Sequence record: JN673056
Length of the DNA stretch: 64,000 nt
Source: Escherichia phage PhaxI
Strand: one strand, 5' to 3'
Shown here: positions 650-47,841 of the stretch, piece by piece
Position numbering within the stretch: position 1 is the stretch's first letter
Layout of the letters: each line of letters begins with the position of its first letter
Notes under the pieces: generated by a model
Told to the model about the DNA's origin: nothing
Databases searched by the model: none
Seen by the model: only the letters and a program-made list of their open reading frames with translations
Program-made: the position numbers and the translations under genes

Positions 650-2979
650 TCCTTCTTAATCACTTCGGTCATGCCATTACGCAGACCATAACGAATGTTA
701 TGTTGGAAATATTCTTGGAACTCCTGCTCACGCTGACTGATGACAAACAGATTGTTCCCACCAAATTTATGTTTCAGCATCTCGATGGATTCTTGAACCC
801 CTCGCTCACTCATGTTTTCGAGTATCTCATCCAACACGAAGAGGTTACATTGTACAGACGCCTTCAGGTTAGCGACGTCCCGTAGGGCTAATGTCACAGC
901 CAGATTGAGTCGGCTGCGTTGTCCTGTAGACAGGGAGAATATGCTTTGCCCTTTACGACCAGCAGCGCTCATGGTGATTTCAAATGTATCATCAACAGCA
1001 ATATCCAAGAACATATTGAGTGCTTCAAGATACTCGTTTATTTTACTATTGAGGAAAGGCAAATACAGACTGATAATTCGAGCCTTGGTCTGATCATCTT
1101 TTAGGAAGAACAGAAGATGGTTCAGTCTTGCAATTTCCTCATCCAACTCTACGCGCCGCGCATTCAGATCTTCCATTAATGCCGTGATGCGAGCGATCTC
1201 TTCTTCCAGGGCGTCAGTTGGTGTCGGCTTAACCGCCAATTTACGCTCTAAATCAGCAATGGATGCCTCCAGAGGGGCACGGCGTGATTTCAGGCTGGTG
1301 AGTTTATCAGCCGTGTCGTTGATACTCTTAGAGAGCTGCTCACGCGCTTGACGGATTGACGTCGTGATATCTTCGTAACGGGTGTCTACGGCCTTGAGGA
1401 CGTCGTTAATTTTGGACTGTTGTTCCCGCTGTAAAGATGTTTTCTCAACAGCAGCGACATCATAGAATCCTTGGATGTCGCGTTTTAATGTAGCGATCGC
1501 CGATTCCGCTTCTCGAATTTCATTGCGCAAAGCATCCAGTTCTTTGTCAACAACCGAAATCTGAGAAGATAATTCTGAATCTCTGACATTGTAATTCTCA
1601 ATCAGGGAATTCACTTCTTCTAGGGCTGTATCAACCTGAAGAATCTTGTCAGTCAGTTCACTGATTTGTGGATAATATTGACTTTCAATGCGTGATTTGG
1701 TATCGTCCGACACTAATTGCGTACACGTAGGGCAAGTGCCCATATCGTGGAAACGTTTGATGGCAGATTCATGGCCTTCCATTTCTGTGACGAATTTGAA
1801 ACGGAAGTTCTCTCCCTGTTGACGCCGCGCCAACGCTTTATTCAGTTCGTCGAGATTAGCATTCCTCTGACCGACTAGTTCGTTTTTGCGTTCTGCGACC
1901 ACCGCCATTCTTTCGCGGATTTCTTGTAACGACCTTTCGCCGTCGGATACTTCTATGTGTTCATAATCTTCAGCCTTGGTATCGGCTTCATCCTGAACTG
2001 CTTGGATTTTGGCCGCATACTCTTCATTGATGGCATCGATATCCCCTTTCATTTCGGCATTCAGGCGATTACGGACTTCTGATAATTCTGATTCCAATTT
2101 AGAGTCTTGAGCACGGGACTCTGTCAGTTGTTCCTGCACTGCGCCGATATCTGAATTCAGGCTATTCAGACGTTCCTTCTCTTGGACAAGGATATCCGCA
2201 GATTGTTGCTGGATCATCGCATTGGAATTATTGATCTGTTCCAACTGCGCTTGCTGGCCTTTTAAATTTACATCATGAAAGGCGTAATCATTGGTGACCG
2301 TCGTGAGTTCATTCGTTACTGTCTTGATAGATGCTTTTACATCTTCATTCATCAGACTGAAGAACCCCAAATCCCAGATTGTCTCTACCATAGCGCGACG
2401 GTCGGCAGTGTACATTTCCGTGAATGGGATGAACTTCTCTTTGCCTAGAACCAGGGAGTTCTCAAACATCTTCTGGTCTACGCCAATCAGGTTCACAATA
2501 TATTTGTTCATGTCGGCTTTGGCCGCATCATTCACGACCTGCTTCCACTCACCGTCTACCATCTGATAGACTTCTACGAAATCAGGTTTGATATCACGAC
2601 GGACTTTCCATTCACTTCCTCGAGTGGAGAACTCAACTTCACCCACGCATTCCTTTTTGTTTTGGGAATTGACTAATCCGGCTTTCTTTTCTTTCTTGCT
2701 ATATGTGTCATTATACAGAACGAAGAACAGCAGCCAGACAAGCATGGTGGATTTACCAGCGCCATTGTCATCGGATGTAACCAAGGTTGCCGAATTGCGT
2801 TGGTAATCAATTTCCATGAATTCATTACCGATGGAACGGAAGTTTTTAGCGCGACCGCGATGGAATGTCAGTTTGTGGGTAATTTCCCCACGGATTTCAA
2901 ATGGTGCTTCAACAGAAACAGGAGTGTCCGCTTCTTTCAGAAGGGAACCGAATTTAGACAGTAGATCTACATTGCTCAT
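646..2979 (-). CDS. Rad50/SbcC-like recombination ATPase (T4 gp46-like)
   Basis: Walker A GAGKSTMLVWLL near N-terminus, long coiled-coil middle with CPTC zinc-hook (GTCPTCTQ), C-terminal signature LSTGQRS and Walker B/D-loop FVLDEILENMSERG; ATG 2977-2979 abuts stop of Mre11-like gene. Confidence 0.8.
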   Translation of the reverse strand: MSNVDLLSKFGSLLKEADTPVSVEAPFEIRGEITHKLTFHRGRAKNFRSIGNEFMEIDYQRNSATLVTSDDNGAGKSTMLVWLLFFVLYNDTYSKKEKKAGLVNSQNKKECVGEVEFSTRGSEWKVRRDIKPDFVEVYQMVDGEWKQVVNDAAKADMNKYIVNLIGVDQKMFENSLVLGKEKFIPFTEMYTADRRAMVETIWDLGFFSLMNEDVKASIKTVTNELTTVTNDYAFHDVNLKGQQAQLEQINNSNAMIQQQSADILVQEKERLNSLNSDIGAVQEQLTESRAQDSKLESELSEVRNRLNAEMKGDIDAINEEYAAKIQAVQDEADTKAEDYEHIEVSDGERSLQEIRERMAVVAERKNELVGQRNANLDELNKALARRQQGENFRFKFVTEMEGHESAIKRFHDMGTCPTCTQLVSDDTKSRIESQYYPQISELTDKILQVDTALEEVNSLIENYNVRDSELSSQISVVDKELDALRNEIREAESAIATLKRDIQGFYDVAAVEKTSLQREQQSKINDVLKAVDTRYEDITTSIRQAREQLSKSINDTADKLTSLKSRRAPLEASIADLERKLAVKPTPTDALEEEIARITALMEDLNARRVELDEEIARLNHLLFFLKDDQTKARIISLYLPFLNSKINEYLEALNMFLDIAVDDTFEITMSAAGRKGQSIFSLSTGQRSRLNLAVTLALRDVANLKASVQCNLFVLDEILENMSERGVQESIEMLKHKFGGNNLFVISQREQEFQEYFQHNIRYGLRNGMTEVIKKD

Positions 2980-2981
2980 TA

Positions 2982-4097
2982 TTATGCATCCAATGTGTTC
3001 AGGCGTTGTTGGGCAGCATTATAGAATTGTTCTGCTAATTTGCAAACATTTTCAGGGCGCTGGATATTATTGGCGGCGCGGATATCTTTCTTCAAGACTT
3101 CCACCGCATCAGTAGCCACCATCTCTTCAGTGACTTCTACCTTCTCGGAAGCAACAGTAATCGTCCGATCGATGAAGTTGTAATCGATGCATTTACAGCG
3201 CTTCAATGCGTCACAGAACTTTTCATAATGCTTGGCATTGTCACGGTTCTGTACAATCACCTTAACGATTTGCCCTTCAATACCCAAAACATTGTTTAAC
3301 CAATCGGGGTCGATCCAATTACCTTCAGTATCAGAAGACATTTGGGTGTAGTCGTATTCCACGAACCGGAACAACGTTTGTTGTTCGTTGTTGGGGATAA
3401 ACAATTCCCCGCCATTCATGTCGTCTACATAGAATCCTCGGTTCGTCCCGTCTTTGTGGTCTTCCCAGGTAAGGTGATAAGGAGTCCCAATATACTGAAT
3501 GTTACCTTCCATCGAACGGGTATGGAAATGTCCGGTATCCACGCGCTCGAATTTCGAAAGGAGCGCCAAGTCGATCTGACCTTTATCACATACAGAGGAC
3601 TGGTACATTTTGAACCCTGCCAACTCCAGATGCGCAAAACAGTACTTGGCGTCTGTATCTTGTATCGCTTTAATGGACGCATCATAGTTCTCTTTGTTAA
3701 TCCACGGCAGTAGGAGGGTCTTGACACCTTCAATCATTACTTCAGTTGGTTCGCTGTAATAATGATAAACCTCCGGTGCCAATTCATTAAGATAAGAAGG
3801 CCAGTTAATACGATTGGACTCTTCTAACGTGATATCATGGTTGCCGACGATGCCATTCCATTTAATACCTGCTTTGCGCAGCGCTGGCGTCAATTCATCT
3901 TTCAACCAATCTTTATCGCGACCATACATGAATTTGCGAACATCAAACGTATCACCAAATTGCCACACTTCTTTAATATCGGCGTCAACCAATTCTGGAA
4001 TAAAATAATTGATGAGATAATTCTTTATGAATTCTCGAACGTAACGGGAACCATTACGGCTCCCGATATGTAAATCGCCAATTTTAGCAATCGCCAT
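2982..4097 (-). CDS. Mre11/SbcD-like nuclease (T4 gp47-like)
   Basis: Calcineurin-like phosphoesterase motifs GDLHIG, GNHD, DTGHFH; directly upstream of Rad50-like gene as in T4 47-46. Confidence 0.8.
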   Translation of the reverse strand: MAIAKIGDLHIGSRNGSRYVREFIKNYLINYFIPELVDADIKEVWQFGDTFDVRKFMYGRDKDWLKDELTPALRKAGIKWNGIVGNHDITLEESNRINWPSYLNELAPEVYHYYSEPTEVMIEGVKTLLLPWINKENYDASIKAIQDTDAKYCFAHLELAGFKMYQSSVCDKGQIDLALLSKFERVDTGHFHTRSMEGNIQYIGTPYHLTWEDHKDGTNRGFYVDDMNGGELFIPNNEQQTLFRFVEYDYTQMSSDTEGNWIDPDWLNNVLGIEGQIVKVIVQNRDNAKHYEKFCDALKRCKCIDYNFIDRTITVASEKVEVTEEMVATDAVEVLKKDIRAANNIQRPENVCKLAEQFYNAAQQRLNTLDA

Positions 4098-4875
4098 TAT
4101 TTTGTTGCTCCCGTTCTAATGCTCGTTTCTTTGCTTCTTCCCAATCTGGTTCCATAGAACATATTTCGTCTTCCAGATTGAATTGAGTAGAGCCGAAGTC
4201 ATAGTCTGAATTATCTTCGGCGTCGGCGGTAATGGTATTTTCACTCTTTGTGAGACATTGAAGTATACCGCGAGGAATTTTCTTATTCTTTTCCTCTTCT
4301 TTGATGGCGATTTGCTTTTGGCGTTCCTTTTCGCGCTGGGCTTCTTTCTTAGTTTCAAAATTTCCGATACGCTCACGAAAGTCCATTGTTATACCAGTGC
4401 TGTCTACGAATGTCTGTTGCTGGAAGTCTGGGTCATCTGATAATGCAGCGAAACCACCTGCTTCTTCAAATGAACGCAACTTGATATAATTGTGTTCTTC
4501 TTCACTGGTGAGTTTCTTGGCGAATGAACGATCGGCGCACATCGTTACCCAAGAGAAGAAATTGATTTTTCCTTTCTTGCCGATATGACTGACGTCAAAT
4601 GTATGGAGGTAACGAAGGATGTTGACAACGGCCTCACTGACCATGTCTTCGCGGTATGGATAATCACGATAGTTGTAGCGCATACTCATGTTCTTAATAA
4701 TCATCTGAACATTCATGGCCACATAATTGGGGATTCTTGGTAGGGGTGTTCCTTCGGCCAAAGCCTTTTTGCGAGCCGGAATCCAATCTCTCAATATTCC
4801 AACAACACGGTCATTATCTTCGTCTGTGAAATATTTGGTGACGTTATCACCCCTGTCTACAAAATTCATACCCAT
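4084..4875 (-). CDS. late-transcription sigma factor (T4 gp55-like), with acidic C-terminal extension
   Basis: Positionally equivalent to T4 gene 55 next to gp47; segments LRDW, MNVQMIIKNMSMRYNYRDY, NFFSWVTMCADRSFAKKL align by eye with remembered gp55 (IIDW, [39 protein letters not shown]); start moved from TTG 4890 to ATG 4875 preceded by GAGGAT. Confidence 0.55.
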   Translation of the reverse strand: MGMNFVDRGDNVTKYFTDEDNDRVVGILRDWIPARKKALAEGTPLPRIPNYVAMNVQMIIKNMSMRYNYRDYPYREDMVSEAVVNILRYLHTFDVSHIGKKGKINFFSWVTMCADRSFAKKLTSEEEHNYIKLRSFEEAGGFAALSDDPDFQQQTFVDSTGITMDFRERIGNFETKKEAQREKERQKQIAIKEEEKNKKIPRGILQCLTKSENTITADAEDNSDYDFGSTQFNLEDEICSMEPDWEEAKKRALEREQQNNGDC

Positions 4876-4886
4876 CGTGATAATCC

Positions 4887-5414
4887 TCAAATACCAATGA
4901 ATTCATTGAAAGAACCAACGACTTTCTTGACCGAGAAACGGTTATTTTCAAGAACCATTGAACTATCTTCTTTGGCTCTAACGCTCCACTGATCCGCAAT
5001 TTCGTTGCCCATCGTTCCTGCATGACCTTTCACCCATTTTAATTCAAGTTCACAAATTGAACAAACTTTGTCATAATAATCGAACAACTCGAGCAGAAGT
5101 TCTGTGTTCTTAGGCGGCATTCCTTCATATTCCCATTTACGACGCCACTCCAAAACGCTATTGATAACATATTGGCTGTCGGATATAATGCGGGCTGGGG
5201 GAATGCAGCGTTCACCGCAATTAGAGAATTTCCATAGGATCTTCATCGCGTTTATAACCCCGAGTAACTCAGCTATATTGTTCGTTGACGGCGGGGGTAA
5301 ATACCCATAAAACACTTTCCATTGCTCTCCAGTGATTGGACTGATGGCAAATGCCCAACCAGCGGCTCGTGTCTTCTGAGGGGATGATGCCCCGTCAGTG
5401 TATATTTCAATCAT
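4887..5414 (-). CDS. rnhA: ribonuclease HI (bacterial rnhA type)
   Basis: RNase H motifs IYTDGA, NNIAEL, SDSQYV, WVKGHAG..NE.AD match E. coli RNase HI catalytic residues; start set to ATG 5412-5414 (track begins at TTG 5429). Confidence 0.75.
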   Translation of the reverse strand: MIEIYTDGASSPQKTRAAGWAFAISPITGEQWKVFYGYLPPPSTNNIAELLGVINAMKILWKFSNCGERCIPPARIISDSQYVINSVLEWRRKWEYEGMPPKNTELLLELFDYYDKVCSICELELKWVKGHAGTMGNEIADQWSVRAKEDSSMVLENNRFSVKKVVGSFNEFIGI

Positions 5415-5456
5415 GTATAAGTATCCCAAACTGGTTTTATCGATGAGGAACGAATC

Positions 5457-6224
5457 ATGTCAGAACGCGCATATCGTTTCAGTCTGACCGCCCCAGAAAT
5501 TGAGCGTTTGCTCTTGTCTATAAATGATTCCATACAAAAGCTGGACATCATTTATGACTACACGGCGGGTGGGACTGAAGGTCAAGTCGCAGCTGCGTCA
5601 GCTGTCAAAAACATGTGGCTAAAACTTAATGAGATGGTCACAGGTGAAGGTCTTAAAGACGCAATCAATGCAGCTAACGACAGCAACGTATTCACCGATT
5701 ATTATAAGTCTATTTTAGATCGCGAAACTTGGAAATTTATTGGTTCTCCGGCAGATTTATTAGCAAGGGACGATATAGACACTTCCAATTTTGAAGGCGG
5801 TGAAGTAATCCTCCTACAAAAGAACGCTTCGGGCAACCCAGAATTCCAATACTGGAAAAGAACTCCTGTGGCAGGAGGTGATCCAATATTTGGTTGGGAA
5901 TCTGTTTATGAAGGAAACTCCAACGACTCTTCTATTGATATTCCGGTTGTTGGGACCAGCATACTGAAGACAATCCCAAAAGCATTGTTTCATATGGTCG
6001 AATTCCGAGTACACGCTCGAGAGTCTACCCTCGGTCATTGGCAGGACACTGATGGCAAAATCGGTTATCGTGGTGAAGATCTGATTTATAGCCTGTATAA
6101 TCATGTTCAAACCAAACCGATCGCAAATATATCTTTCAGCCAAGATGTGGACAATATGATTATCACGATAACGACACTTGAACCAAATATCAAGTGCCAT
6201 TTATCGTTTATTGCGGGTTATTAA
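5457..6224 (+). CDS. hypothetical protein (255 aa), plus-strand
   Basis: ATG 5457 preceded by GAGGAA; convergent with flanking minus-strand genes; no motif recognised. Confidence 0.45.
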   Translation: MSERAYRFSLTAPEIERLLLSINDSIQKLDIIYDYTAGGTEGQVAAASAVKNMWLKLNEMVTGEGLKDAINAANDSNVFTDYYKSILDRETWKFIGSPADLLARDDIDTSNFEGGEVILLQKNASGNPEFQYWKRTPVAGGDPIFGWESVYEGNSNDSSIDIPVVGTSILKTIPKALFHMVEFRVHARESTLGHWQDTDGKIGYRGEDLIYSLYNHVQTKPIANISFSQDVDNMIITITTLEPNIKCHLSFIAGY

Positions 6225-7927
6225 ACCTCAAACACTGCATCGGTGAACCAGGTTGGGAAGAATTCTGGGTTGCGCATCATAAGAGATTCAAAGGATGAAT
6301 CAATGATGTATGTCGCAGCCCAGTCATCAACACCCCTGACCGAACGCCCACACATTTGAACAATGCGCAGTACTGCATTGCGGAAATATGCCGACGGATC
6401 CACTGAATTGATATGTGCTATCAGTGGATCGCCCAGATAATCATAAGGGACTTTGATCAGTATTTGGAAACGGCTGTAATCCCCTTTGAAATCATAACCT
6501 TCTTCCATAGCCGGACTGGCAATGACGCATGGGGACTTTGTTCTAAAAGCATTTTCCATAATATCCATCAACGCCTTTCGGGTACGCGGAACATGGATAA
6601 AATTCTGATATTTGCTGAATTTTTGTATTGCCAAGGCGCGATCATAACTCACTGTATGGATAATGCCGGACTGACCTGGGTGGAACGCGATTATTTCATC
6701 AATATATTCCGTCAACCTTTTCATTTCATAGTCACCCATATTGTTAGTCATCTTCACTATGGGCATATAGTTGACTTTTCTGTTTTCAATCGGGATAGGG
6801 TTGCCGATCTGAATGGAATGATAATCCCCCTGTCGAATACCCAATGAACGAGCATACAGATCGTGCTGACATATGAACGTGGATATCGCTTTTCGGAATA
6901 ACCCGAATTCGCTTACATCAGAAGGCATTACAGGTTTAAACCGGATAAAATCCTCCCCCTTTTCTTGCACAATAAATGTACTTGCTTGGGTTTGTGACAT
7001 AATACCGCAATAATCACTCAAGTTATGCAAGACATCTATAATGTCGGCGAGTTTCATCACTTGGCTTTCACTCAAGCGATCATCTTCGACCAATTCTTCA
7101 AGAACTTCCAACAAATTTTCTACTTTGAGATGGAGGGCTTCAAACATTGAATGCAGTTCACCAGACAAAGAATATAACTTGCCCAGGACATAGTCCTTGG
7201 TGCGTTCTACGATATCACCAATGGTAGAGACGATCTCCTTGCCCTCAGGGATAGAACGCAGCCCCTCCACGGCCTTTGTATTGTATTCCATGATCGTGTG
7301 CTCTAGGAGCGTAGAGGGCATTTTATGGCACTCGTCAAGGATCAGCATATCGGAACGGTTTTCGGGCTTCATGCAGATGGTTGTACACATTTCGATCATC
7401 ATGGCAGCATTAGTACAACGCAATGATGAAATATCCGTCCACAAATTACGCGCCTGTACATAAGGACAGCGGCGTTTGCTACAATGCCCGTCACGGCATG
7501 CTATACGGCATTGGACAGCATTGTAATACACATCTGGATGTACGTGGCAACGATAGTTCTTCTTGCCTTTTAGGATGTCTATCGCCACCGCCTTTTCAGC
7601 AGCATACTGATCTTGCAGACCTTTGGTCGGGGTGCTGATAGAAGTGCGAAATTGCCCATAAGGATCAGCCTGTAAAACTAGATGGCGAATCACTTTATGA
7701 ATGGTAGTGCCAATCAAAGATTTACCGACACCTGTCGGAGCTTCAATGATGACATGTTTAACCTTTTTGTTGATAAGCGCATCTATGGCTTCGACGATGC
7801 ATTCCATCTGGCCTGGGTTCGCTTTGTCATATGGGAATTCATCTTTGGTAAGGCGTTGTATTTCTTCCACAGGAACCTTACGGCCTATGGCGTCAATCGC
7901 CTTTCGGTGTTGATTAAATGCTGTCAC
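6221..7927 (-). CDS. SF2 DNA helicase, Rad3/XPD/DinG-like with Fe-S cysteine cluster
   Basis: Walker A APTGVGKS, DECH box (ILDECHK), cysteine-rich insert CHVHPDVYYNAVQCRIACRDGHCSKRRC typical of 4Fe-4S helicases; GTG start with strong SD AAAGGAGG. Confidence 0.65.
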   Translation of the reverse strand: MTAFNQHRKAIDAIGRKVPVEEIQRLTKDEFPYDKANPGQMECIVEAIDALINKKVKHVIIEAPTGVGKSLIGTTIHKVIRHLVLQADPYGQFRTSISTPTKGLQDQYAAEKAVAIDILKGKKNYRCHVHPDVYYNAVQCRIACRDGHCSKRRCPYVQARNLWTDISSLRCTNAAMMIEMCTTICMKPENRSDMLILDECHKMPSTLLEHTIMEYNTKAVEGLRSIPEGKEIVSTIGDIVERTKDYVLGKLYSLSGELHSMFEALHLKVENLLEVLEELVEDDRLSESQVMKLADIIDVLHNLSDYCGIMSQTQASTFIVQEKGEDFIRFKPVMPSDVSEFGLFRKAISTFICQHDLYARSLGIRQGDYHSIQIGNPIPIENRKVNYMPIVKMTNNMGDYEMKRLTEYIDEIIAFHPGQSGIIHTVSYDRALAIQKFSKYQNFIHVPRTRKALMDIMENAFRTKSPCVIASPAMEEGYDFKGDYSRFQILIKVPYDYLGDPLIAHINSVDPSAYFRNAVLRIVQMCGRSVRGVDDWAATYIIDSSFESLMMRNPEFFPTWFTDAVFEV

Positions 7928-40978: not shown

Positions 40979-41437
40979 CTAATTAGTCGTCAATCTTTTA
41001 ATCTTCATGGAAGAAAAATCAAATCCGTGGTCAACATTGCTTAAAACGGGTTCTATTTCACACAATTCCCAACGGGGATCTATGAGAGAAACAAGACCAA
41101 TGTGTTCACCTGTGGATGTCAATTTTGCTGCAGTTTTACCCAGCATATGACTTCCATCATTACCGCCTTTATTCATGTTGTAACCCATCTCATAAGAATT
41201 ATATTGAGCGATGAGTTGCTTCTCTAATTCCCATTTATGGACTTCATCGGTCTGAGCAATTACAACGAAAGTAAATCCAGATGTTCCATACTTACGCATG
41301 GCATCATACAATTCACTTTGGACTCCATGATGAAAAGCATTCGCAAAATGCTGATCATATCTTCGTTGTGGGTTATTGGTTACACCGATGTAGACCTTTC
41401 CATTAGTTATCGTTTCAATTTTGTATGCGTATATCAT
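40979..41437 (-). CDS. GIY-YIG homing endonuclease
   Basis: MIYAYKIETITNGKVYIGVTNNPQRRYDQHF is a canonical GIY-YIG motif with the conserved Arg; inserted between gp19 and gp18. Confidence 0.7.
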   Translation of the reverse strand: MIYAYKIETITNGKVYIGVTNNPQRRYDQHFANAFHHGVQSELYDAMRKYGTSGFTFVVIAQTDEVHKWELEKQLIAQYNSYEMGYNMNKGGNDGSHMLGKTAAKLTSTGEHIGLVSLIDPRWELCEIEPVLSNVDHGFDFSSMKIKRLTTN

Positions 41438-41504
41438 TTCAAATTCACCTCTATTTTATTTAGTGTTGAACAATTTCGGGGTATTATGCTCTTGGAGGTG
41501 TTAT

Positions 41505-42293
41505 ATGATCGGTCATATCTACATGTTAACCGTCGGTAAAAAGAAGTATATCGGACAAACTAGAAACGGCGTTGAGTATCGAGTAAATGAACATTTGGGT
41601 GAAGCAAGAAGAGGGAATAAAACTATCCTCTACAACTATATCCGAAAGTATGGAATTACCAGCCAAGAAATATTGCTAGAATGCCATGTCGATGACCTAA
41701 ACTCTAACGAAATTGAACTCATAAAATTGCATAAGACTCATATCTCTGAAGGTGGGCTGAATATCAGCCGTGGCGGTCAGATAGACATATCTGGTATGGC
41801 CGCAGCATATGATATAGAAAGCAGGGAATTCATCGGAATGAAACCAGTTAATGATGCTGGTTGGAATGTTTTGTTTGTGGCAAAACAATACGGTTTAGTA
41901 CATAAAGAAGAAAGTAAAACAAAAATGTCCCAATCCCAAGCGGTCGTGTGGACAGAAGAAAAGAAAGAATTGCAATCCCGGCGAATTACAAAGGCATACG
42001 AGAATCCAAAATGTAAAGAAAATCTTCGTATCGCTATGAACAAAGTGCGTATGAATCCTGAATTTCAAGAGAAAATAAATCGATCTCTCGGGAGATGGTT
42101 TACACTTCTTTCACCAGCTGGTGAAGAATATGAAATCAAGAATCTAAACAAATTTTGTCAAGAACAATGTTTGTGTATAGAATCTTTCAACATGGCATTA
42201 GCTGGAAGGATGCAGAATCCCATCCCTAAACCTTACAGGAAATCTTCATTGAAGAGAACAAATACCACAGGATGGCATATCAGTAGGAAATAA
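41505..42293 (+). CDS. GIY-YIG homing endonuclease (Seg-like), plus-strand
   Basis: ATG 41505 with SD GGAGGTG; HIYMLTVGKKKYIGQTRNGVEYRVNEH canonical GIY-YIG; divergent from adjacent minus-strand GIY-YIG gene. Confidence 0.7.
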   Translation: MIGHIYMLTVGKKKYIGQTRNGVEYRVNEHLGEARRGNKTILYNYIRKYGITSQEILLECHVDDLNSNEIELIKLHKTHISEGGLNISRGGQIDISGMAAAYDIESREFIGMKPVNDAGWNVLFVAKQYGLVHKEESKTKMSQSQAVVWTEEKKELQSRRITKAYENPKCKENLRIAMNKVRMNPEFQEKINRSLGRWFTLLSPAGEEYEIKNLNKFCQEQCLCIESFNMALAGRMQNPIPKPYRKSSLKRTNTTGWHISRK

Positions 42294-42320: not shown

Positions 42321-44216
42321 TTAGGATGCAGCAACGATGCCGCCGCCTGATTCGATCTCGGAGAATTCCATATCTGGTCGAACTGCAGCAAAATCCAAAT
42401 ATACCCAATTAATGCTGTACTCAGGCTTCAACCAAATGCCTGCAACCATGGTGTTGGCTGCGATAACATCAGCAGTGTTGTTATCTTCGTCACACTTGAC
42501 TTTACCATCGTAGATCGCACCCATATTTGCCAGTTGGCGAATATAAGGACGAACAGCGTTGCTGAACAGGCTGCGAGTGAACGCATCATTGTTCTCACCA
42601 AGGTAATATTTGGCGATTGCAGCGATGTTCTGTTCTGCCATAATGAACAAGCCACGAACATTGATACGATCGAAAGCAGACGGACGAGTCAGGCCAGTTT
42701 TGTCACCATACAACACGATACCTTCATTGGAGAAGGTTACGATGCTGTTAATCTGGTTGCGGTACAACACGGCACGTTCATCGGAAGACGCAGACCACGC
42801 CATTCGATTGTAGTTGTTGTATTTGCCACGGTTGTGGAACGCAGGAGATTTGTAGATACCCGCGATTTCAATGCTTCGCGCCCAAACACCTGCGGTGCCA
42901 CCACAAGCCGGAATCCAACGCATTTTGTCGTTGTACTTGTCGTACACATATGCCCAGTTATCATCCATGAAGAAATAAGAAGAGTCGCGAACAAGGCTTT
43001 CACGCCAAGCAACGACATCATCCATTTCACGACCACGGTTGCCAACAACCGTATCACGGAGCGGGGATACGAAAGATACCGTATCTTTTCGCTCAGTAGA
43101 TAAGTCGATCAATGCTTGTTGCTCAATCAGTTCTTCACAGTACGCAAATACTGGCTTCGCATCATATGCTTCAGCATTGTTCAAGACTTGGATAGCTGCC
43201 ACGCGGTTGATGTTATAATCGTCTACGCCGCCTTCTAATTCAACAACACCTGCGGACAGAGCGGTAGCGAAGGTGTACACCCAATTTGATGTATCATTGA
43301 TGACATCTTTGAAGTACGCATTCGCGCCATCGGACTTTTTGGAACCCTGTGTGTTCTGCATGAGTTCGTATTTTTCGATAATAGAACCAGATGCGCCAAC
43401 AGTGGTAATCACGGCGGTTGCAGTCAGCCCCTTATCATCTGGAACAATAGCAGTAACTGTCTGGGGACCAATAGCTTTATGGGTCACGATGACAGTGTTG
43501 GACTTCACGACAACAGAAGAATAAACACTTGTCAGGGAAGTTAGTGCTGTACCGATTTTGGTTGCCAAATCGGCTGGAGTATCAGTATCCAGATATGCGA
43601 TATCTTCACCTGCCACACTGATGGTGCCAGCAGCAGTAGCCGTACCAGAAACGGAGATACGGTCAACCTGACCGACCGCGCCAGCAGAGTCGGTAATGCG
43701 ACCAACTTTGTCTACGACAACTACATGGAATTCACCAGACTGAGGTGCGTATGCAAAGTTATTACGGAATTCCCAAGTTGAGAATCCAGCAGCATCACAA
43801 ACATTGATAGCAATATCATTACCCAGGGAACCTGGATAACGACCAGTCCAAGTGATGGACGCCGAAGGACTTGCTGTTTCAAAATCCAGTTTGTTTTTGA
43901 TCGCAATCGCTGTCTGACCTTTGGTAACAGAGTTCTTGGCCAGAGGACCAACAACACGGGTCACCCATGCCATAGAGCTGTAAGACAAAAAGTCCGCGAT
44001 TACGAGAAAATCGGTCGCAGTACTGTCGTTGGGTTTGAAGAATTTCTTCACCAAACCTGTCTCACCACCAGTCACCAGCACTGGAAGTTCAACTTCACCC
44101 CATTGAAATTTGCCGACGGTCGCGCCCTGAACAACAACGGACGGGGACGTCTGAAGCGTGGCATCACGCTCAGTCCACTGAACGGACGGCGCAACGCTGA
44201 AGCTTTGAGTTGCCAT
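42321..44216 (-). CDS. tail sheath protein (T4 gp18-like)
   Basis: N-terminus MATQSF..GKFQWGEVELP matches T4 gp18 GKFQWGPAFQ; start set to ATG 44214-44216 with SD AAGGAA (track starts at TTG 44249). Confidence 0.85.
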   Translation of the reverse strand: MATQSFSVAPSVQWTERDATLQTSPSVVVQGATVGKFQWGEVELPVLVTGGETGLVKKFFKPNDSTATDFLVIADFLSYSSMAWVTRVVGPLAKNSVTKGQTAIAIKNKLDFETASPSASITWTGRYPGSLGNDIAINVCDAAGFSTWEFRNNFAYAPQSGEFHVVVVDKVGRITDSAGAVGQVDRISVSGTATAAGTISVAGEDIAYLDTDTPADLATKIGTALTSLTSVYSSVVVKSNTVIVTHKAIGPQTVTAIVPDDKGLTATAVITTVGASGSIIEKYELMQNTQGSKKSDGANAYFKDVINDTSNWVYTFATALSAGVVELEGGVDDYNINRVAAIQVLNNAEAYDAKPVFAYCEELIEQQALIDLSTERKDTVSFVSPLRDTVVGNRGREMDDVVAWRESLVRDSSYFFMDDNWAYVYDKYNDKMRWIPACGGTAGVWARSIEIAGIYKSPAFHNRGKYNNYNRMAWSASSDERAVLYRNQINSIVTFSNEGIVLYGDKTGLTRPSAFDRINVRGLFIMAEQNIAAIAKYYLGENNDAFTRSLFSNAVRPYIRQLANMGAIYDGKVKCDEDNNTADVIAANTMVAGIWLKPEYSINWVYLDFAAVRPDMEFSEIESGGGIVAAS

Positions 44217-44258
44217 AATATCATTCCTTCTCGGTAGAGTTTCGCTCAATTTGAAAGA

Positions 44259-44265
44259 TATTTAG
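44259..44265 (-). promoter_or_regulatory. late-promoter-like motif CTAAATA between terminase stop and gp18 start
   Basis: Minus-strand CACTAAATATC about 40 nt upstream of gp18 ATG. Confidence 0.4.
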
Positions 44266-44268
44266 TGA

Positions 44269-46479
44269 TCAATTCTTAAACCACTCATCCATGGTCATCC
44301 CTGACATTTCGTTGAAAACTTGAATACCCCCGAAACCAGGCAAATGCTCAGTTTCGGATGGGGTGTCTCCAACGACTAAACCGCCAAATGGGAATACCTG
44401 CTGGGATTCAGTTGAAGACATTCGGTTTCTCATGTCCTGAGAAATACTTGTAGATGTCAAGTCACTGAACCATTCTTGTTTTACCGCCCATGAATATAAG
44501 ACCAACGGCATGACACAGTCATCGTGACAACCGTCATCGGCTTCATACCGAGCGCCTTTGAACACAAATGTACTGAGTTCATCTATCGTGTCCTGGTCTT
44601 CTATCACCAACATTTCTTTCTCAATGAGCGCTTTCAGGTTAGCACAACCGATAGATCGGACTTTTCTGTTGGTATTGATACCAGGTTCCGGTTTACGTCC
44701 ACCAATCCGTTTCCCCGTCCCTTTGTTATCTGTTGATGTGAATATGATTTCTGGATATTCTATCTCTTGATAAAGAATTGTAATAACCTGACCGCCGACG
44801 TCGTTGTTTGTTTCAACAAGGACAGGACATTCCCCGTATTCGGTGCACATATCAGCTATCGTGTATGCATACATCATAGGAGGTATCGTATTATTCCTGT
44901 ACTTGGCTGCTATGACATGCGGATATTCAGTTATATCCAGAATTGTTAAGACGGAATAATCTCCTTCCACCCCCTTCCCAGTGTCCGCAATCCCAAAGTA
45001 GAGACGTTGTGGGTCGTATTCCTTATAAATCTTGGTGAATTCATTAGGTTCCCGATACAACTTGGACGTCATTTTATCTAAGCATTTGGCCGGAATCAAT
45101 GAACCCACGGAACCACGGAACTTAATGCCAAATTCTTGATCGAAACGAGCATCCCCCAGACGGGCACGTTGTTTGGTTTCCCAATCTGGATCTTTGGTAT
45201 ATGCCGGAACCTTATACCATGGGACTTCAGTTAGGTGGAAGTCGTTGTATGGTGGATGGCGTGGATCTGCTTTGGTGACAATATCATAGAACAACCCTCG
45301 CTGGCCTTTCGGAGTACTTGTCAAAATACAGCGTGATGTATCGGCAGATGCAATGGCTGGGAAAGTTGATTCCCAAAATTCAAAGTCGTTTTCGATAAAC
45401 GCGACTTCGTCAACATACAGGAGCGATCGACGACCACGGATGGAGTTCCGAAGACTCGTGGCATAAGCGTATATCTTAGAACCATTCTCAAACTCTATCA
45501 GGGTAGAACCAAACTTCTCACAACCCTGCTGAAGGAAGAATGGAAGGTCTTGGTATGCCTTTCTGATACGGTCAAGAATTTCTATCGCTTGTTTCTCTTT
45601 GTTTGCCAGTACTGCGATTTCCTTATCAGAATGGAACATCGCGTACCAAAGAAGAAACGCCGCCACCACGGTCGTGTTATGACTGAGAAAGCCATTCGTG
45701 TAATAACGTTGATCACTAGATTTGACCTGCAGATCGTACATATGGTGATATTCACCAGTCTGCCAAATCTCACGGATTTCTTCTGGACCTTCGGTCGTCA
45801 TGATGTATGACCCAGCATTCAGGTCTTTGGCAAATATCTCCTTCATGTCCGGAGTGAAGAACATATGTTCATCGGCCACGTTAATTCGCCTTCCGGTAAC
45901 GGTGACAATAACGAATTCCGCATATTTCTTCGTCTTATGCGCTGCGATAACCGGAACCCAGCCACTATCGGATTGTACAAAGTAACGTTTGCCGAAGCGG
46001 CTGTCCACGAACTTGTCATGGTTGCCAATGGTATTCAGCGGCACAGCGTGGTTGACGTCCTCGAAGCGGCTGTGAAGCTCCCCTATAGTCAGGAGCAACT
46101 CCTCTTGGCTGAGAGTATCGTAAACTGTGACAAGCGTGTCGCCTTTTACACATTTTCCGGACTGACGAGCCTGGACGACCGCATTAAATCGATAGTCCTG
46201 AAAGTCGTGGAACAACTGCTTCTGATAATCATGCATATCGAAAAGGATAAAGCCCTTATCGATCGTGGTTATCTTGTAATAGTTGGCGGCGAAGTAGTGT
46301 GCATCCATAGAACATTCAACGAATTCGTCTTCTTGTTCATCTGTCAGCATTAACTCGACTCGAGGAGCACGCACAGAAAGTTTGCGCATGAACGTTTGGT
46401 CCATACGCAATTTTACATCGTCTATTTTGAACCCCGTTTTAATTGGGGCATATTCTATATCACGCTTCTGATACGCCAT
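44269..46479 (-). CDS. terminase large subunit (T4 gp17-like) interrupted by a mini-intein
   Basis: C-terminal nuclease/ATPase blocks (LLYVDEVAFIENDFEFW, ILTSTPKGQRGLFYDI) match remembered T4 gp17; Walker A ARQSGK is separated from its TTVVAAFL continuation by a 159-aa insert. Confidence 0.9.
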   Translation of the reverse strand: MAYQKRDIEYAPIKTGFKIDDVKLRMDQTFMRKLSVRAPRVELMLTDEQEDEFVECSMDAHYFAANYYKITTIDKGFILFDMHDYQKQLFHDFQDYRFNAVVQARQSGKCVKGDTLVTVYDTLSQEELLLTIGELHSRFEDVNHAVPLNTIGNHDKFVDSRFGKRYFVQSDSGWVPVIAAHKTKKYAEFVIVTVTGRRINVADEHMFFTPDMKEIFAKDLNAGSYIMTTEGPEEIREIWQTGEYHHMYDLQVKSSDQRYYTNGFLSHNTTVVAAFLLWYAMFHSDKEIAVLANKEKQAIEILDRIRKAYQDLPFFLQQGCEKFGSTLIEFENGSKIYAYATSLRNSIRGRRSLLYVDEVAFIENDFEFWESTFPAIASADTSRCILTSTPKGQRGLFYDIVTKADPRHPPYNDFHLTEVPWYKVPAYTKDPDWETKQRARLGDARFDQEFGIKFRGSVGSLIPAKCLDKMTSKLYREPNEFTKIYKEYDPQRLYFGIADTGKGVEGDYSVLTILDITEYPHVIAAKYRNNTIPPMMYAYTIADMCTEYGECPVLVETNNDVGGQVITILYQEIEYPEIIFTSTDNKGTGKRIGGRKPEPGINTNRKVRSIGCANLKALIEKEMLVIEDQDTIDELSTFVFKGARYEADDGCHDDCVMPLVLYSWAVKQEWFSDLTSTSISQDMRNRMSSTESQQVFPFGGLVVGDTPSETEHLPGFGGIQVFNEMSGMTMDEWFKN
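45676..46152 (-). mobile_element. mini-intein (Hint domain only, 159 aa) inserted in the terminase Walker A P-loop
   Basis: Insert begins Cys (CVKGDTLV, block A), contains VYDLQV...NGFLSHN ending in His-Asn, and is followed by Thr (+1 nucleophile) that completes QSGK-T of the P-loop; no homing endonuclease domain. Confidence 0.75.
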
Positions 46480-47140
46480 CGTCTTCTTCCTTCACATCAA
46501 CTGTTTCACCATCAATGATTTCATCTTCTGGTTGTTGTGCGGCCTTTGCTTGTGCTCTTTCTTCAGCGCGACGGCGGGCATCTTCAATCGTCTTCAATAA
46601 ATCGCGAGAAGATCGCGCCTTTTTCCCAACCGATACTGTTGTTGTTCCGTCTGGTGAAGTTGTAACATCCACTGTCGTGTCATCAACAGGTGGTTCTTTA
46701 TCACCTGTTACTGCCTTGATGGTTTTCTGGTTTTCCATCAAGTCTTTATTCAGACCGCGCATGAGTTCACCCAATTCACGGAAAACAGAAAATGCTCGCG
46801 GAGCTTCTGTGGATGCAGCCAATTTAGCGGCTTGTCCCATCATGAACATTGTGGCTTCTTGCATAGCATATGTTGTGTCGCGTATCCGTTTGTAATCCGT
46901 TGTAGCATCAGTGTCCGCAAACTCAGGTACTTTGGATTCCTTGGAAGCAATATCCTCCAATGAAGGCGGTTCAGGAATCGGCTGATACCCTTCCGGACGT
47001 TCACCAAACCATTCACCTGTATTTTCATCGAAGTCAATACCTGGACGAGGGGCGACAGCCTCCATCGCCTCCTTCCCGACTTCGTCTCGGGCAGTCACTG
47101 CATCAAGCGTGGCGAGTAACCTTTCTGACATATTGCTCAT
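46460..47140 (-). CDS. terminase small subunit (gp16 position)
   Basis: Directly upstream of and overlapping terminase large subunit; acidic C-terminus; start set to ATG 47138-47140 with SD GGAGG. Confidence 0.6.
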   Translation of the reverse strand: MSNMSERLLATLDAVTARDEVGKEAMEAVAPRPGIDFDENTGEWFGERPEGYQPIPEPPSLEDIASKESKVPEFADTDATTDYKRIRDTTYAMQEATMFMMGQAAKLAASTEAPRAFSVFRELGELMRGLNKDLMENQKTIKAVTGDKEPPVDDTTVDVTTSPDGTTTVSVGKKARSSRDLLKTIEDARRRAEERAQAKAAQQPEDEIIDGETVDVKEEDDGVSEA

Positions 47141-47142
47141 GA

Positions 47143-47841
47143 TCAATCCTCCGGATGATGTATGCCGTCTTTATCAACTCGGAACCACTCAGGAAGTTCC
47201 GACCATGGCATGTTCAAATCATTAGACATTTCAATAATTATCTCTTTGATGACGTTTGGGTCCCCACCGCCCGAACCATCATCAACCCAATAATCTTCTC
47301 CATAGATGTGACCATGTAATTGAAAATTGAATGAACAATCTATGTGTGGTGATTCTGTTGCGTCTCCTTCCCAGTTGTCAGAAATCGTGTGATTTACCAA
47401 CATTATCTTCACGTTCTGATCTTGAGATAGCGTATCCGTGTCTTTTATCTGACAATCAATAGAAGGAGTGAACACAGAATAAATTTGTTCTAATACTTGC
47501 AACATTTCGACCAATTTTTTAGTTCTGATATTGTATTCAAAATCTATAATGATCGGAATGCGTTGTTTGGACCGTGCCGTAGCGGTCGATATTTGGTTGT
47601 GGTATGACTTCGTCACCTGTTTATTGATTTCGAACTGACCAAAGGACATTGTTGCAAATGGCAGCATATTGGCTGGCACGTTCCTGTTGAGGTCATTACG
47701 GCGGCCAATGGCCATATGCAGCGGGATTTCCATCAAGCCACGTTCGGTTTTGACTTTTAAATCTGACATGATAGCGTTGAACACATGTATGTATTTCAAC
47801 AATGATTCATGATAGAAATATTTTTCAAATGGTCTGGCCAT
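47143..47841 (-). CDS. tail sheath stabiliser/completion protein (T4 gp15-like)
   Basis: N-terminus YFYHESLLKYIHVFNAIMSDLKVK resembles T4 gp15 YFYNSSFRRYATLMGDLFSNIQIK; synteny. Confidence 0.65.
   Translation of the reverse strand: MARPFEKYFYHESLLKYIHVFNAIMSDLKVKTERGLMEIPLHMAIGRRNDLNRNVPANMLPFATMSFGQFEINKQVTKSYHNQISTATARSKQRIPIIIDFEYNIRTKKLVEMLQVLEQIYSVFTPSIDCQIKDTDTLSQDQNVKIMLVNHTISDNWEGDATESPHIDCSFNFQLHGHIYGEDYWVDDGSGGGDPNVIKEIIIEMSNDLNMPWSELPEWFRVDKDGIHHPED

What the first reader, a model, noticed from the sequence alone, without database searches (positions are those of the whole stretch)
45676..46152. Mini-intein splitting the Walker A P-loop of the terminase large subunit
The gp17-like terminase reads ...ARQSGK | CVKGDTLV...(159 aa)...NGFLSHN | TTVVAAFLLW.... 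Removing the insert restores the canonical P-loop QSGKT. The insert starts with Cys, ends with His-Asn, is followed by a Thr nucleophile, and carries Hint blocks (VYDLQV, GFLSHN) but no endonuclease domain. Packaging would then depend on protein splicing, and the ATPase P-loop is a classic intein insertion hot spot.
Basis: partly seen in the sequence, partly recalled or inferred. Interest (0 to 1): 0.75.

Follow-up and report, generated by a model that had tools for sequence, protein, structure and literature searches.

The report
Known mini-intein in phage terminase P-loop
The phage's DNA-packaging motor gene really is interrupted, inside its ATP-binding loop, by a 159-residue self-splicing protein element (a mini-intein), but this element is already annotated with the same boundaries in closely related phages, so it is a correct but ordinary finding.

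Summary
The window comes from a Kuttervirus (family Ackermannviridae), 99% identical to phages CBA120 and BPS7. Its terL ORF (44269..46479, minus strand, 736 aa) carries a 159-aa in-frame insert (45676..46152) between Lys109 and Thr269 of the Walker A motif.

Several results show the insert is an intein:
- Removing it gives ARQSGK|TTVVAAF, which aligns without a gap to T4 gp17 SRQLGKTTVVAIF.
- The insert alone just passes the Pfam and NCBIfam intein cut-offs.
- Its AlphaFold model (pLDDT 94.8) matches only intein or HINT structures; the best match is the VidaL intein.
- Cys1, the block B His, the block F Asp, His-Asn and Thr+1 are conserved in every homologue that contains the position.
- Relatives with 73–84% identical exteins lack exactly these 159 residues.
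- No endonuclease domain is present, and dN/dS is about 0.06–0.10.

Splicing itself was not tested. The element is already known. It is described for Salmonella phage Marshall (2013) and annotated as an "intein" mature peptide in phages Maynard, Marshall and Magnus at identical positions. TerL inteins at the GK|T site are established in the literature.

One small addition: intein and extein histories disagree. A tract inside the intein (45785..46127) is shared with Agtrevirus phages.

The parts
44269..46479 (-). terL precursor ORF: 736 aa, 84.7 kDa, T4 gp17-type large terminase containing the intein
   Evidence: 99% nt identity to annotated terL of Kuttervirus phages; molecular weight
46153..46479 (-). 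N-extein, aa 1-109, ending in the Walker A residues A-R-Q-S-G-K
   Evidence: aligns to T4 gp17
45676..46152 (-). Mini-intein: 159 aa, 18.3 kDa, class 1, no homing endonuclease domain
   Evidence: Pfam PF14890 36.2 bits against a 35.8 cut-off and TIGR01445 24.9 against 24.5; AF2 pLDDT 94.8; Foldseek top 50 are all inteins or BIL domains; absent from P0009 and P0013-16
46150..46152 (-). Cys1 codon (TGT, precursor aa 110), the first nucleophile and the only Cys in the intein
   Evidence: present in all 17 homologues that contain the N-terminus
45865..45867 (-). Block B His (intein H96, precursor H205) in the invariant motif A-D-x-H
45733..45735 (-). Block F Asp (intein D140, precursor D249) in M-[YF]-D-L
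45676..45681 (-). Penultimate His and terminal Asn (H158-N159, precursor H267-N268), block G
45673..45675 (-). Thr+1 (precursor T269): the C-extein nucleophile and also the Walker A Thr of GKT
44269..45675 (-). C-extein, aa 269-736 plus stop: the rest of the ATPase domain and the RNaseH-like nuclease domain
   Evidence: Pfam Terminase_6N and Terminase_6C; gp17 structures 3ezk and 3cpe, E 1e-71
45785..46127 (-). Recombinant tract inside the intein (terL nt 353-695, intein aa about 9-123). It groups with Agtrevirus AV101-type phages rather than with other Kuttervirus phages.
   Evidence: Quartet analysis: 33 informative sites for the cross-genus grouping against 0 for genus inside the tract; 7 against 240 outside it; Fisher p 2e-36
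46460..47146 (-). terS (gp16-like small terminase). It overlaps the terL start by 20 nt, and no endonuclease gene lies between terS and terL here.

Best explanation
The 159-aa segment is a class 1 mini-intein in cis (contiguous) form. It sits in the T4-type large terminase (TerL) of an Ackermannviridae (Kuttervirus) phage, between the invariant Lys and Thr of the Walker A P-loop (ARQSGK|T).

The gene is translated as an 84.7-kDa precursor whose ATP-binding loop is physically interrupted. The inferred mechanism is the canonical four-step splicing pathway:
1. An N-to-S acyl shift at Cys1 (C110), helped by the block B His (H205 of the precursor).
2. Attack on the thioester by the hydroxyl of Thr+1 (T269), giving a branched ester.
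3. Cyclisation of Asn159 (N268), helped by the penultimate His and the block F Asp, which releases the 18.3-kDa intein.
4. An O-to-N shift that forms the K109-T269 peptide bond.

The product would be a 66.4-kDa TerL with an intact GKT P-loop. DNA packaging therefore depends on splicing.

The intein has no endonuclease domain. It persists by vertical inheritance and by homologous recombination between intein-bearing phages, not by self-encoded homing.

Shown here: anatomy, fold, residue conservation, intein-free alleles, purifying selection and the mosaic history. Inferred: the chemistry, and that splicing happens at all.
For: - Boundaries and P-loop restoration. The spliced sequence aligns to T4 gp17 (3ezk) at E 1.2e-71 with no gap across the junction. 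The Pfam Terminase_6N score rises from 53 to 70 bits after excision in silico.
- Intein profiles on the insert alone: PF14890 36.2 bits against a 35.8 cut-off; TIGR01445 24.9 against 24.5.
- PDB sequence hits are the Cat consensus, VidaL and gp41-1 inteins.
- The AF2 model has pLDDT 94.8 and pTM 0.87 and is all beta-rich HINT. All of the Foldseek top 50 are inteins or BIL domains; VidaL scores E 2e-11 with TM 0.75/0.83.
- C1, A93-D94-x-H96, M138-x-D140, S157-H158-N159 and T+1 are conserved in homologues down to 33% identity.
- Intein-free alleles exist at 83% (P0009) and 73-75% (P0013-16) extein identity, missing exactly these residues.
- Intein dN/dS is 0.06-0.10.
- More than 250 cultured, viable phages carry the interrupted gene.
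- The same element is already annotated as an intein at aa 110-268 in phage Magnus, in Marshall (PMC3853055) and in Maynard/Marshall YP_008772116.1.
- Mycobacteriophage TerL inteins splice efficiently in reporter constructs, and a GK|T site is described there as the classic P-loop insertion (PMC5050341).
Against: - No experiment on this intein or any Ackermannviridae TerL intein was found in the searchable literature.
- On the whole 736-aa protein the Pfam intein score (29.6) is below the cut-off. TIGR01443 (C-terminal region) scores 14.1 against a 15.6 cut-off.
- The block B Thr of the usual TxxH motif is Ala here, in the whole family.
- Thr is a less common +1 nucleophile than Cys or Ser.
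Confidence: 0.9

Rival explanations
1. The insert is a domesticated intein. Splicing would be conditional (on redox state at Cys1, temperature, or assembly with TerS, portal or DNA), so it would act as a post-translational timer of the packaging ATPase rather than a neutral parasite.
For: - It has no endonuclease domain, yet it is present in all 40 best cultured Ackermannviridae matches to an intein-free allele and in 252 of 258 terL matches.
- Purifying selection is strong, with dN/dS 0.06-0.10.
- A regulatory role for P-loop inteins is proposed in the literature (PMC5050341).
Against: - Purifying selection is expected for any intein in an essential gene, because loss of splicing is lethal.
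- Intein-free relatives with 73-84% identical exteins exist, so the intein is dispensable for this type of TerL.
- The intein has a single Cys, so it cannot form an internal disulfide trap.
- No data on conditionality exist.
Confidence: 0.07
2. The insert is a degenerate, non-splicing HINT-derived insertion that TerL tolerates, or one that only self-cleaves as BIL or Hedgehog domains do.
For: - Profile scores are only marginally above the cut-offs.
- The block B Thr is replaced by Ala.
- BIL domains appear among the structural matches (ranks 36-42).
Against: - The insert lies between the K and T of GKT, so an unspliced or merely cleaved protein would have no functional P-loop, yet the phages are viable.
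- All splicing residues, including Asn159 and the +1 nucleophile, are conserved across the homologues.
- Intein-free alleles join exactly K to T.
- dN/dS is well below 1.
Confidence: 0.02
3. The interruption is removed at the RNA level (a group I intron or similar), not at the protein level.
For: Group I introns occur in essential genes of T4-like phages (general knowledge).
Against: - The insert is in frame, has no stop codon and encodes a confidently folded HINT domain.
- No Rfam family matches 44000..47500 at E up to 1.
Confidence: 0.01

Closest known systems
Annotated TerL inteins of Ackermannviridae: Salmonella phages Marshall and Maynard (intein YP_008772116.1) and Klebsiella phage Magnus (MN045230, mat_peptide 'intein')
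   Same: Same host protein, same GK|T site, same length (159 aa) and same precursor positions (aa 110-268). The Marshall paper states that the large terminase is interrupted by an intein (PMC3853055), and the Magnus paper says the same (PMC6763660).
   Different: The window carries a different allele. It is 78.6% aa identical to the Marshall/Maynard intein and 76% to the Magnus intein. It is 100% identical to the unannotated copy in CBA120, PhiSH19, S118 and others.
TerL atypical split inteins and their relatives: GOS-TerL, AceL-TerL, the Cat consensus (PDB 6dsl) and VidaL (PDB 6vgv)
   Same: - These are the best sequence hits (Cat E 0.0024, VidaL E 0.0036) and VidaL is the best structural hit.
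- The GOS-TerL split intein has an unusually long C-part of 122 residues (PMC2677866). That matches the IntC-first proteins that make up 100 of the 150 best family representatives.
   Different: - The window's intein is contiguous and would splice in cis.
- Its +1 residue is Thr, whereas a review table lists Cys at +1 for AceL, GOS and Cat (PMC11766414).
- Identity is only about 20-27%.
Mycobacteriophage TerL1-a inteins (Kelley et al. 2016)
   Same: [quoted passage not shown]
   Different: The host protein belongs to a different terminase family (Terminase_1, not T4-type Terminase_6). In that study the Terminase_6 inteins were at the C-motif, not the P-loop. Several mycobacteriophage TerL inteins carry active endonucleases, and this one has none.

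Membership tests
Intein (HINT superfamily), class 1 | HINT fold | tested here: met
   AF2 model pLDDT 94.8. All of the Foldseek PDB top 50 are inteins or BIL domains; VidaL scores E 2e-11.
Intein (HINT superfamily), class 1 | Match to curated intein profiles above their cut-offs | tested here: met
   Insert alone: PF14890 36.2 against 35.8 and TIGR01445 24.9 against 24.5. Both margins are narrow. TIGR01443 scores 14.1 against 15.6, below its cut-off. On the whole protein PF14890 scores 29.6, below its cut-off.
Intein (HINT superfamily), class 1 | N-terminal nucleophile (Cys or Ser at position 1) | tested here: met
   Cys1 is encoded by TGT at 46150..46152 and is conserved in all homologues that contain the N-terminus.
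Intein (HINT superfamily), class 1 | Block B His, block F Asp, and C-terminal His-Asn | tested here: met
   H96, D140, H158 and N159 are invariant in 18 sequences down to 33% identity. The block B Thr is Ala in this family.
Intein (HINT superfamily), class 1 | Nucleophile (Cys, Ser or Thr) at +1 of the C-extein | tested here: met
   Thr269 is invariant. Across the wider family the +1 residue is T or S.
Intein (HINT superfamily), class 1 | In-frame insertion in a conserved host motif, with intein-free homologues that join the flanks exactly | tested here: met
   P0009, P0013-16, P0018, P0019 and P0023 read RQSGK|TTVVAAF with no insert. T4 gp17 aligns without a gap.
Intein (HINT superfamily), class 1 | Protein splicing demonstrated (ligated exteins plus free intein) | not testable with these tools
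   No experimental report for this intein was found. One proteomic study detected TerL of a Vi01-like phage with only 4 spectra and gives no junction information.
Full-length (bifunctional) intein | Homing endonuclease domain (LAGLIDADG, HNH and similar) between blocks B and F | tested here: not met
   The intein is 159 aa in total. Pfam finds no other domain. The model is a single HINT domain. It is therefore a mini-intein.
Class 3 intein | WCT triplet with an obligate block F Cys nucleophile | tested here: not met
   The only Cys in the intein is Cys1, and block F reads MYDLQV.
Naturally split (atypical) TerL intein | IntN and IntC encoded on separate ORFs | tested here: not met
   There is a single uninterrupted ORF in the window. 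Homologues such as Delftia phage PhiW-14 are split.
T4-type large terminase (Terminase_6 / gp17) | N-terminal ATPase with Walker A, plus a C-terminal RNaseH-like nuclease | tested here: met
   PF03237 scores 70 bits and PF17289 21.8 bits after excision. T4 gp17 3ezk/3cpe match at E 1e-71 over aa 34-516. Synteny is gp15-terS-terL-sheath.

The most novel reading that the evidence does not exclude
The Ackermannviridae TerL intein may be more than a passive parasite. It lacks an endonuclease, yet it is present in every cultured enterobacterial family member examined. It is under strong purifying selection. Its N-terminal three-quarters has been exchanged between subfamilies (Kuttervirus and Agtrevirus), with breakpoints at or inside the intein. 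This could reflect a domesticated, possibly conditional, control of the packaging ATPase, or selection for swapping intein alleles during co-infection.
Probability: 0.08. Interest if true: 0.6.

Novelty: already known. Interest (0 to 1): 0.2.

Why it matters
For this window the finding matters mainly as an annotation point. The 736-aa product is a precursor, the mature TerL is 577 aa, and phylogenies or clustering based on terL should remove residues 110-268. TerL P-loop inteins are an established phenomenon, and this very element is already annotated in sister phages, so the finding opens no new question.

The modest new element is evolutionary. Within one genus two intein alleles differ by 21% while their exteins differ by 2%. 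One allele is shared across subfamilies through a sharply bounded tract inside the intein. This shows that an intein without an endonuclease can still move by ordinary recombination. It also means terL is a mosaic marker in Ackermannviridae.

Tried and rejected
- Word-indexed protein search with the intein alone returned only 2 hits. One of them was useful, the annotated Maynard/Marshall intein. The exhaustive profile search was needed to see the family.
- A literature search that included the term 'VidaL' was swamped by unrelated papers.
- Group I intron or other RNA element: there is no Rfam match in 44000..47500, so this was rejected.
- Class 3 intein: rejected because there is no block F Cys.
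- Adjacent trans-acting endonuclease: none lies between terS and terL in the window. The two GIY-YIG ORFs at 40979..42293 are 2-5 kb from the insertion site. They are not significantly similar to the NUMOD3 endonuclease that sits between terS and terL in SKML-39 and Ds3CZ. No link to the intein could be shown.
- Antisense ORFs over the intein (for example 45865..46353 on the plus strand, 162 aa) are mechanical ORFs with no support.
- Taxonomy of the intein-free Vibrio phages: K440 is unclassified and the GR28A lookup failed. I therefore cannot state that they are Ackermannviridae.
- A complete census of intein presence across all Ackermannviridae records was not possible, because the tools list only a limited number of rows.

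Full report
**1. The observation.** The region lies in a 736-aa ORF on the minus strand, 44269..46479.
- Residues 110-268 map to window 45676..46152, exactly the coordinates given.
- The segment begins CVKGDTLV and ends NGFLSHN. It is preceded by ...FNAVVQARQSGK and followed by TTVVAAFLLW.
- The only inaccuracy in the finding is the quoted motif 'VYDLQV'. The sequence reads MYDLQV.
- Removing the 159 residues leaves 577 aa.

**2. The host gene.** The window is from an Ackermannviridae phage of the genus Kuttervirus.
- The ORF is 99.1-99.4% identical at the DNA level to terL of Salmonella phage BPS7, S118, Escherichia phage CBA120 and many others.
- Pfam finds Terminase_6N and Terminase_6C.
- After excision in silico the Terminase_6N match extends upstream to residue 103 and rises from 53 to 70 bits.
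- The spliced sequence matches T4 gp17 structures 3ezk and 3cpe at E about 1e-71. The alignment runs without a gap across the junction: ARQSGKTTVVAAFL against SRQLGKTTVVAIFL, the gp17 Walker A.
- The neighbours are gp15-like, terS (46460..47146) and tail sheath (42321..44249), in T4-like order.

**3. The insert is an intein.**
- Profiles: scanned alone, the insert passes the curated cut-offs of Pfam Intein_splicing (36.2 against 35.8 bits, E 6.5e-9) and NCBIfam intein_Nterm (24.9 against 24.5). The C-terminal model TIGR01443 is just below its cut-off (14.1 against 15.6).
- Sequence hits: the PDB matches are the Cat consensus atypical split intein, VidaL, a CDC21 intein and gp41-1.
- Structure: an AlphaFold2 model built on 18 homologues is confident (pLDDT 94.8, pTM 0.87) and is one compact beta-rich domain. 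All of the top 50 Foldseek PDB matches are inteins or BIL/HINT domains. VidaL is first, at E 2e-11 and TM 0.75/0.83.
- Catalytic residues: across homologues down to 33% identity the conserved positions are the expected ones. These are Cys1, A-D-x-His96 (block B), M-x-Asp140 (block F), Ser-His-Asn159 (block G) and Thr+1.
- Class and size: Cys1 is the only cysteine, so this is a class 1 intein, not a class 3 intein. No second domain is present, so it is a mini-intein.
- RNA element excluded: no Rfam family matches the region, which excludes a recognisable intron.

**4. Intein-free alleles.** A search with the spliced sequence found many relatives.
- Those of about 735-756 aa carry an insert that starts with Cys directly after RQSGK and ends SHN before TTVV.
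- Those of about 575-583 aa read RQSGK|TTVVAAF with nothing in between.
- The closest intein-free protein (P0009, 576 aa, 83-84% identical) sits on a contig with the same gp15-terS-terL-sheath synteny.
The segment is not a conserved terminase domain.

**5. Mechanism.** The canonical class 1 pathway is inferred, not shown:
1. Acyl shift at Cys1.
2. Trans-esterification by Thr+1.
3. Asn cyclisation.
4. O-to-N shift that recreates Lys-Thr.

Because the insert separates the K and the T of GKT, the precursor cannot have a normal P-loop, so packaging should depend on splicing. More than 250 cultured phages carry the interrupted gene. Intein dN/dS is 0.06-0.10 where dS is measurable. Both observations are as expected if loss of splicing is lethal.

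**6. What is already known.**
- The 2013 genome announcement of Salmonella phage Marshall (same genus) states that its large terminase 'is interrupted by an intein' (PMC3853055).
- NCBI holds a 159-aa protein named 'intein' for phages Maynard and Marshall. It is 78.6% identical to the window's intein.
- The record for Klebsiella phage Magnus (same family) annotates a 'terminase large subunit precursor' with an 'intein' mature peptide at gene nt 328-804, which is aa 110-268, the same positions as here.
- Kelley et al. 2016 describe TerL as the commonest intein host in mycobacteriophages. They call insertion between the P-loop Lys and Thr the 'classic' site and show that several TerL inteins splice (PMC5050341).
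- Dassa et al. 2009 reported a gp17-like terminase split intein with an unusually long C-part of 122 residues (PMC2677866).

The finding is therefore correct but already known.

**7. The wider family.** A profile of the intein finds 2,958 cluster representatives at E up to 1e-3 and 316 at E up to 1e-30.
- Of the best 150, 100 begin directly with the C-terminal part of the intein (about 117-122 residues), which is the atypical split arrangement. Another 34 are contiguous like the window.
- All that could be scored have Thr or Ser at +1.
- The window's element is thus the cis form of a very common phage TerL P-loop intein family.

**8. Something extra: a mosaic history.** Twelve Ackermannviridae terL genes were compared.
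- Exteins follow taxonomy. Kuttervirus genes are 98-99.8% identical to one another. Agtrevirus and Limestonevirus genes are 95-99.7% identical to one another. Between the two groups identity is about 86-88%.
- Inteins do not follow taxonomy. The window's allele is 96-97.5% identical to that of Agtrevirus AV101-type phages but only 78.6% identical to that of other Kuttervirus phages (LPEK22, Sa157lw, Marshall). Other Agtrevirus phages carry a third allele.
- Against LPEK22, nucleotide identity is 99.4% in terS, 96.6% in the N-extein and 72.7% in the intein.
- In a four-taxon site analysis the cross-genus grouping is supported by 33 sites against 0 within terL nt 353-695. The genus grouping holds up to nt 321 and from nt 712 onwards, and overall outside the tract the count is 240 against 7 (Fisher p 2e-36).
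- The exchanged tract (window 45785..46127) therefore lies inside the intein (nt 328-804). It starts near the N-terminal splice junction and ends before blocks F and G.
- This looks like homologous recombination between intein-bearing phages rather than endonuclease-driven homing of a whole element.
- Among the phage records, about 82 carry the window's allele at 99% identity or more and about 89 carry the Marshall allele.

**9. Verdict.** The novelty class is 'already known' and interest is low. The residual novel reading, a domesticated or conditionally splicing intein with allele exchange under selection, is not excluded but has no positive evidence beyond retention and purifying selection.

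Noticed in passing
window 45785..46127 (inside the intein); L003, L005, L006: Intein and extein histories disagree. The window's intein allele is shared with Agtrevirus AV101-type phages (93-94% nt) but differs from other Kuttervirus phages (72.7% nt), although the flanking terS is 99.4% identical to theirs. The breakpoints fall near terL nt 322-352 and 696-711, inside the intein.
   Followed up: yes
window 44900..45675 approx. (terL nt about 800-1350): Against Kuttervirus phage LPEK22, the C-extein just after the intein is only 85-92% identical. It returns to 99-100% near gene nt 1350. This is a second mosaic patch next to the intein.
   Followed up: partly
window 40979..41437 (-) and 41421..42293 (+): Two free-standing GIY-YIG-type ORFs, likely homing endonucleases, lie between the tail sheath and tail tube genes, on opposite strands and overlapping by 17 nt. 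The first is 152 aa (Pfam GIY-YIG 44.5 bits). The second is 290 aa (18.2 bits, below the cut-off). In phage LPEK22 only the 152-aa one is called at this position.
   Followed up: partly
L015 (Delftia phage PhiW-14, NC_013697) about 1979-2440 and 2501-4258: The terL gene of PhiW-14 is naturally split at the same GK|T site. An unannotated upstream ORF encodes the N-extein (...TARQMGK) plus a 41-aa IntN (CVQGDTEIKL...) and then stops. The annotated gp17 starts about 45 nt later with the 121-aa IntC (MDKPSRKFVGS...ASHN|TTTV). This is an atypical split intein homologous to the window's intein, in a cultured phage.
   Followed up: partly
L013 (Campylobacter phage CP21, NC_019507) 2494-6339: CP21 gp125 (403 aa) carries a related cis intein at a shifted P-loop position (PRQ|C...SHN|SSKSTT). 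It ends with what looks like the N-fragment of a second intein (FRGFS|CCLENTRV...). A 421-aa ORF follows, and further downstream there is a separate 'terminase' CDS. This is a fractured terL gene.
   Followed up: partly
L009 409-1287 (Salmonella phage SKML-39); L010 409-1287 (Dickeya phage Ds3CZ): A 292-aa free-standing endonuclease-like gene with a NUMOD3 motif sits between terS and terL in these Aglimvirinae phages, about 330 nt upstream of the intein site. The window has no such gene there. It could drive local gene conversion, but that was not tested.
   Followed up: partly
P0117 (838 aa) and P0120 (511 aa), metagenomic TerL relatives: P0117 has two inteins, one at GK|T and a second after IRGKS just before the Walker B region. 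P0120 starts inside an intein at that second site (IYSHN|CALLYLDEVAF). So TerL of this type has at least two intein sites.
   Followed up: no
one search hit list (MN871475.1, OR844942.1): Records named 'Pseudomonas phage Pa-sanjiao' and 'Enterococcus phage Efm 3-10' are about 99% identical to this Kuttervirus terL. The host labels look implausible, so these may be mislabelled or contaminated records.
   Followed up: no
Vibrio phages: L014 (VP-1), P0019 (K440), P0023 (GR28A): Vibrio phage VP-1 (Ackermannviridae, Vapseptimavirus) has an intein-containing TerL of 738 aa. Vibrio phages K440 and vB_VcorM_GR28A have intein-free TerL of 580-583 aa at about 56% extein identity. Presence is therefore sporadic among the more distant relatives.
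   Followed up: partly
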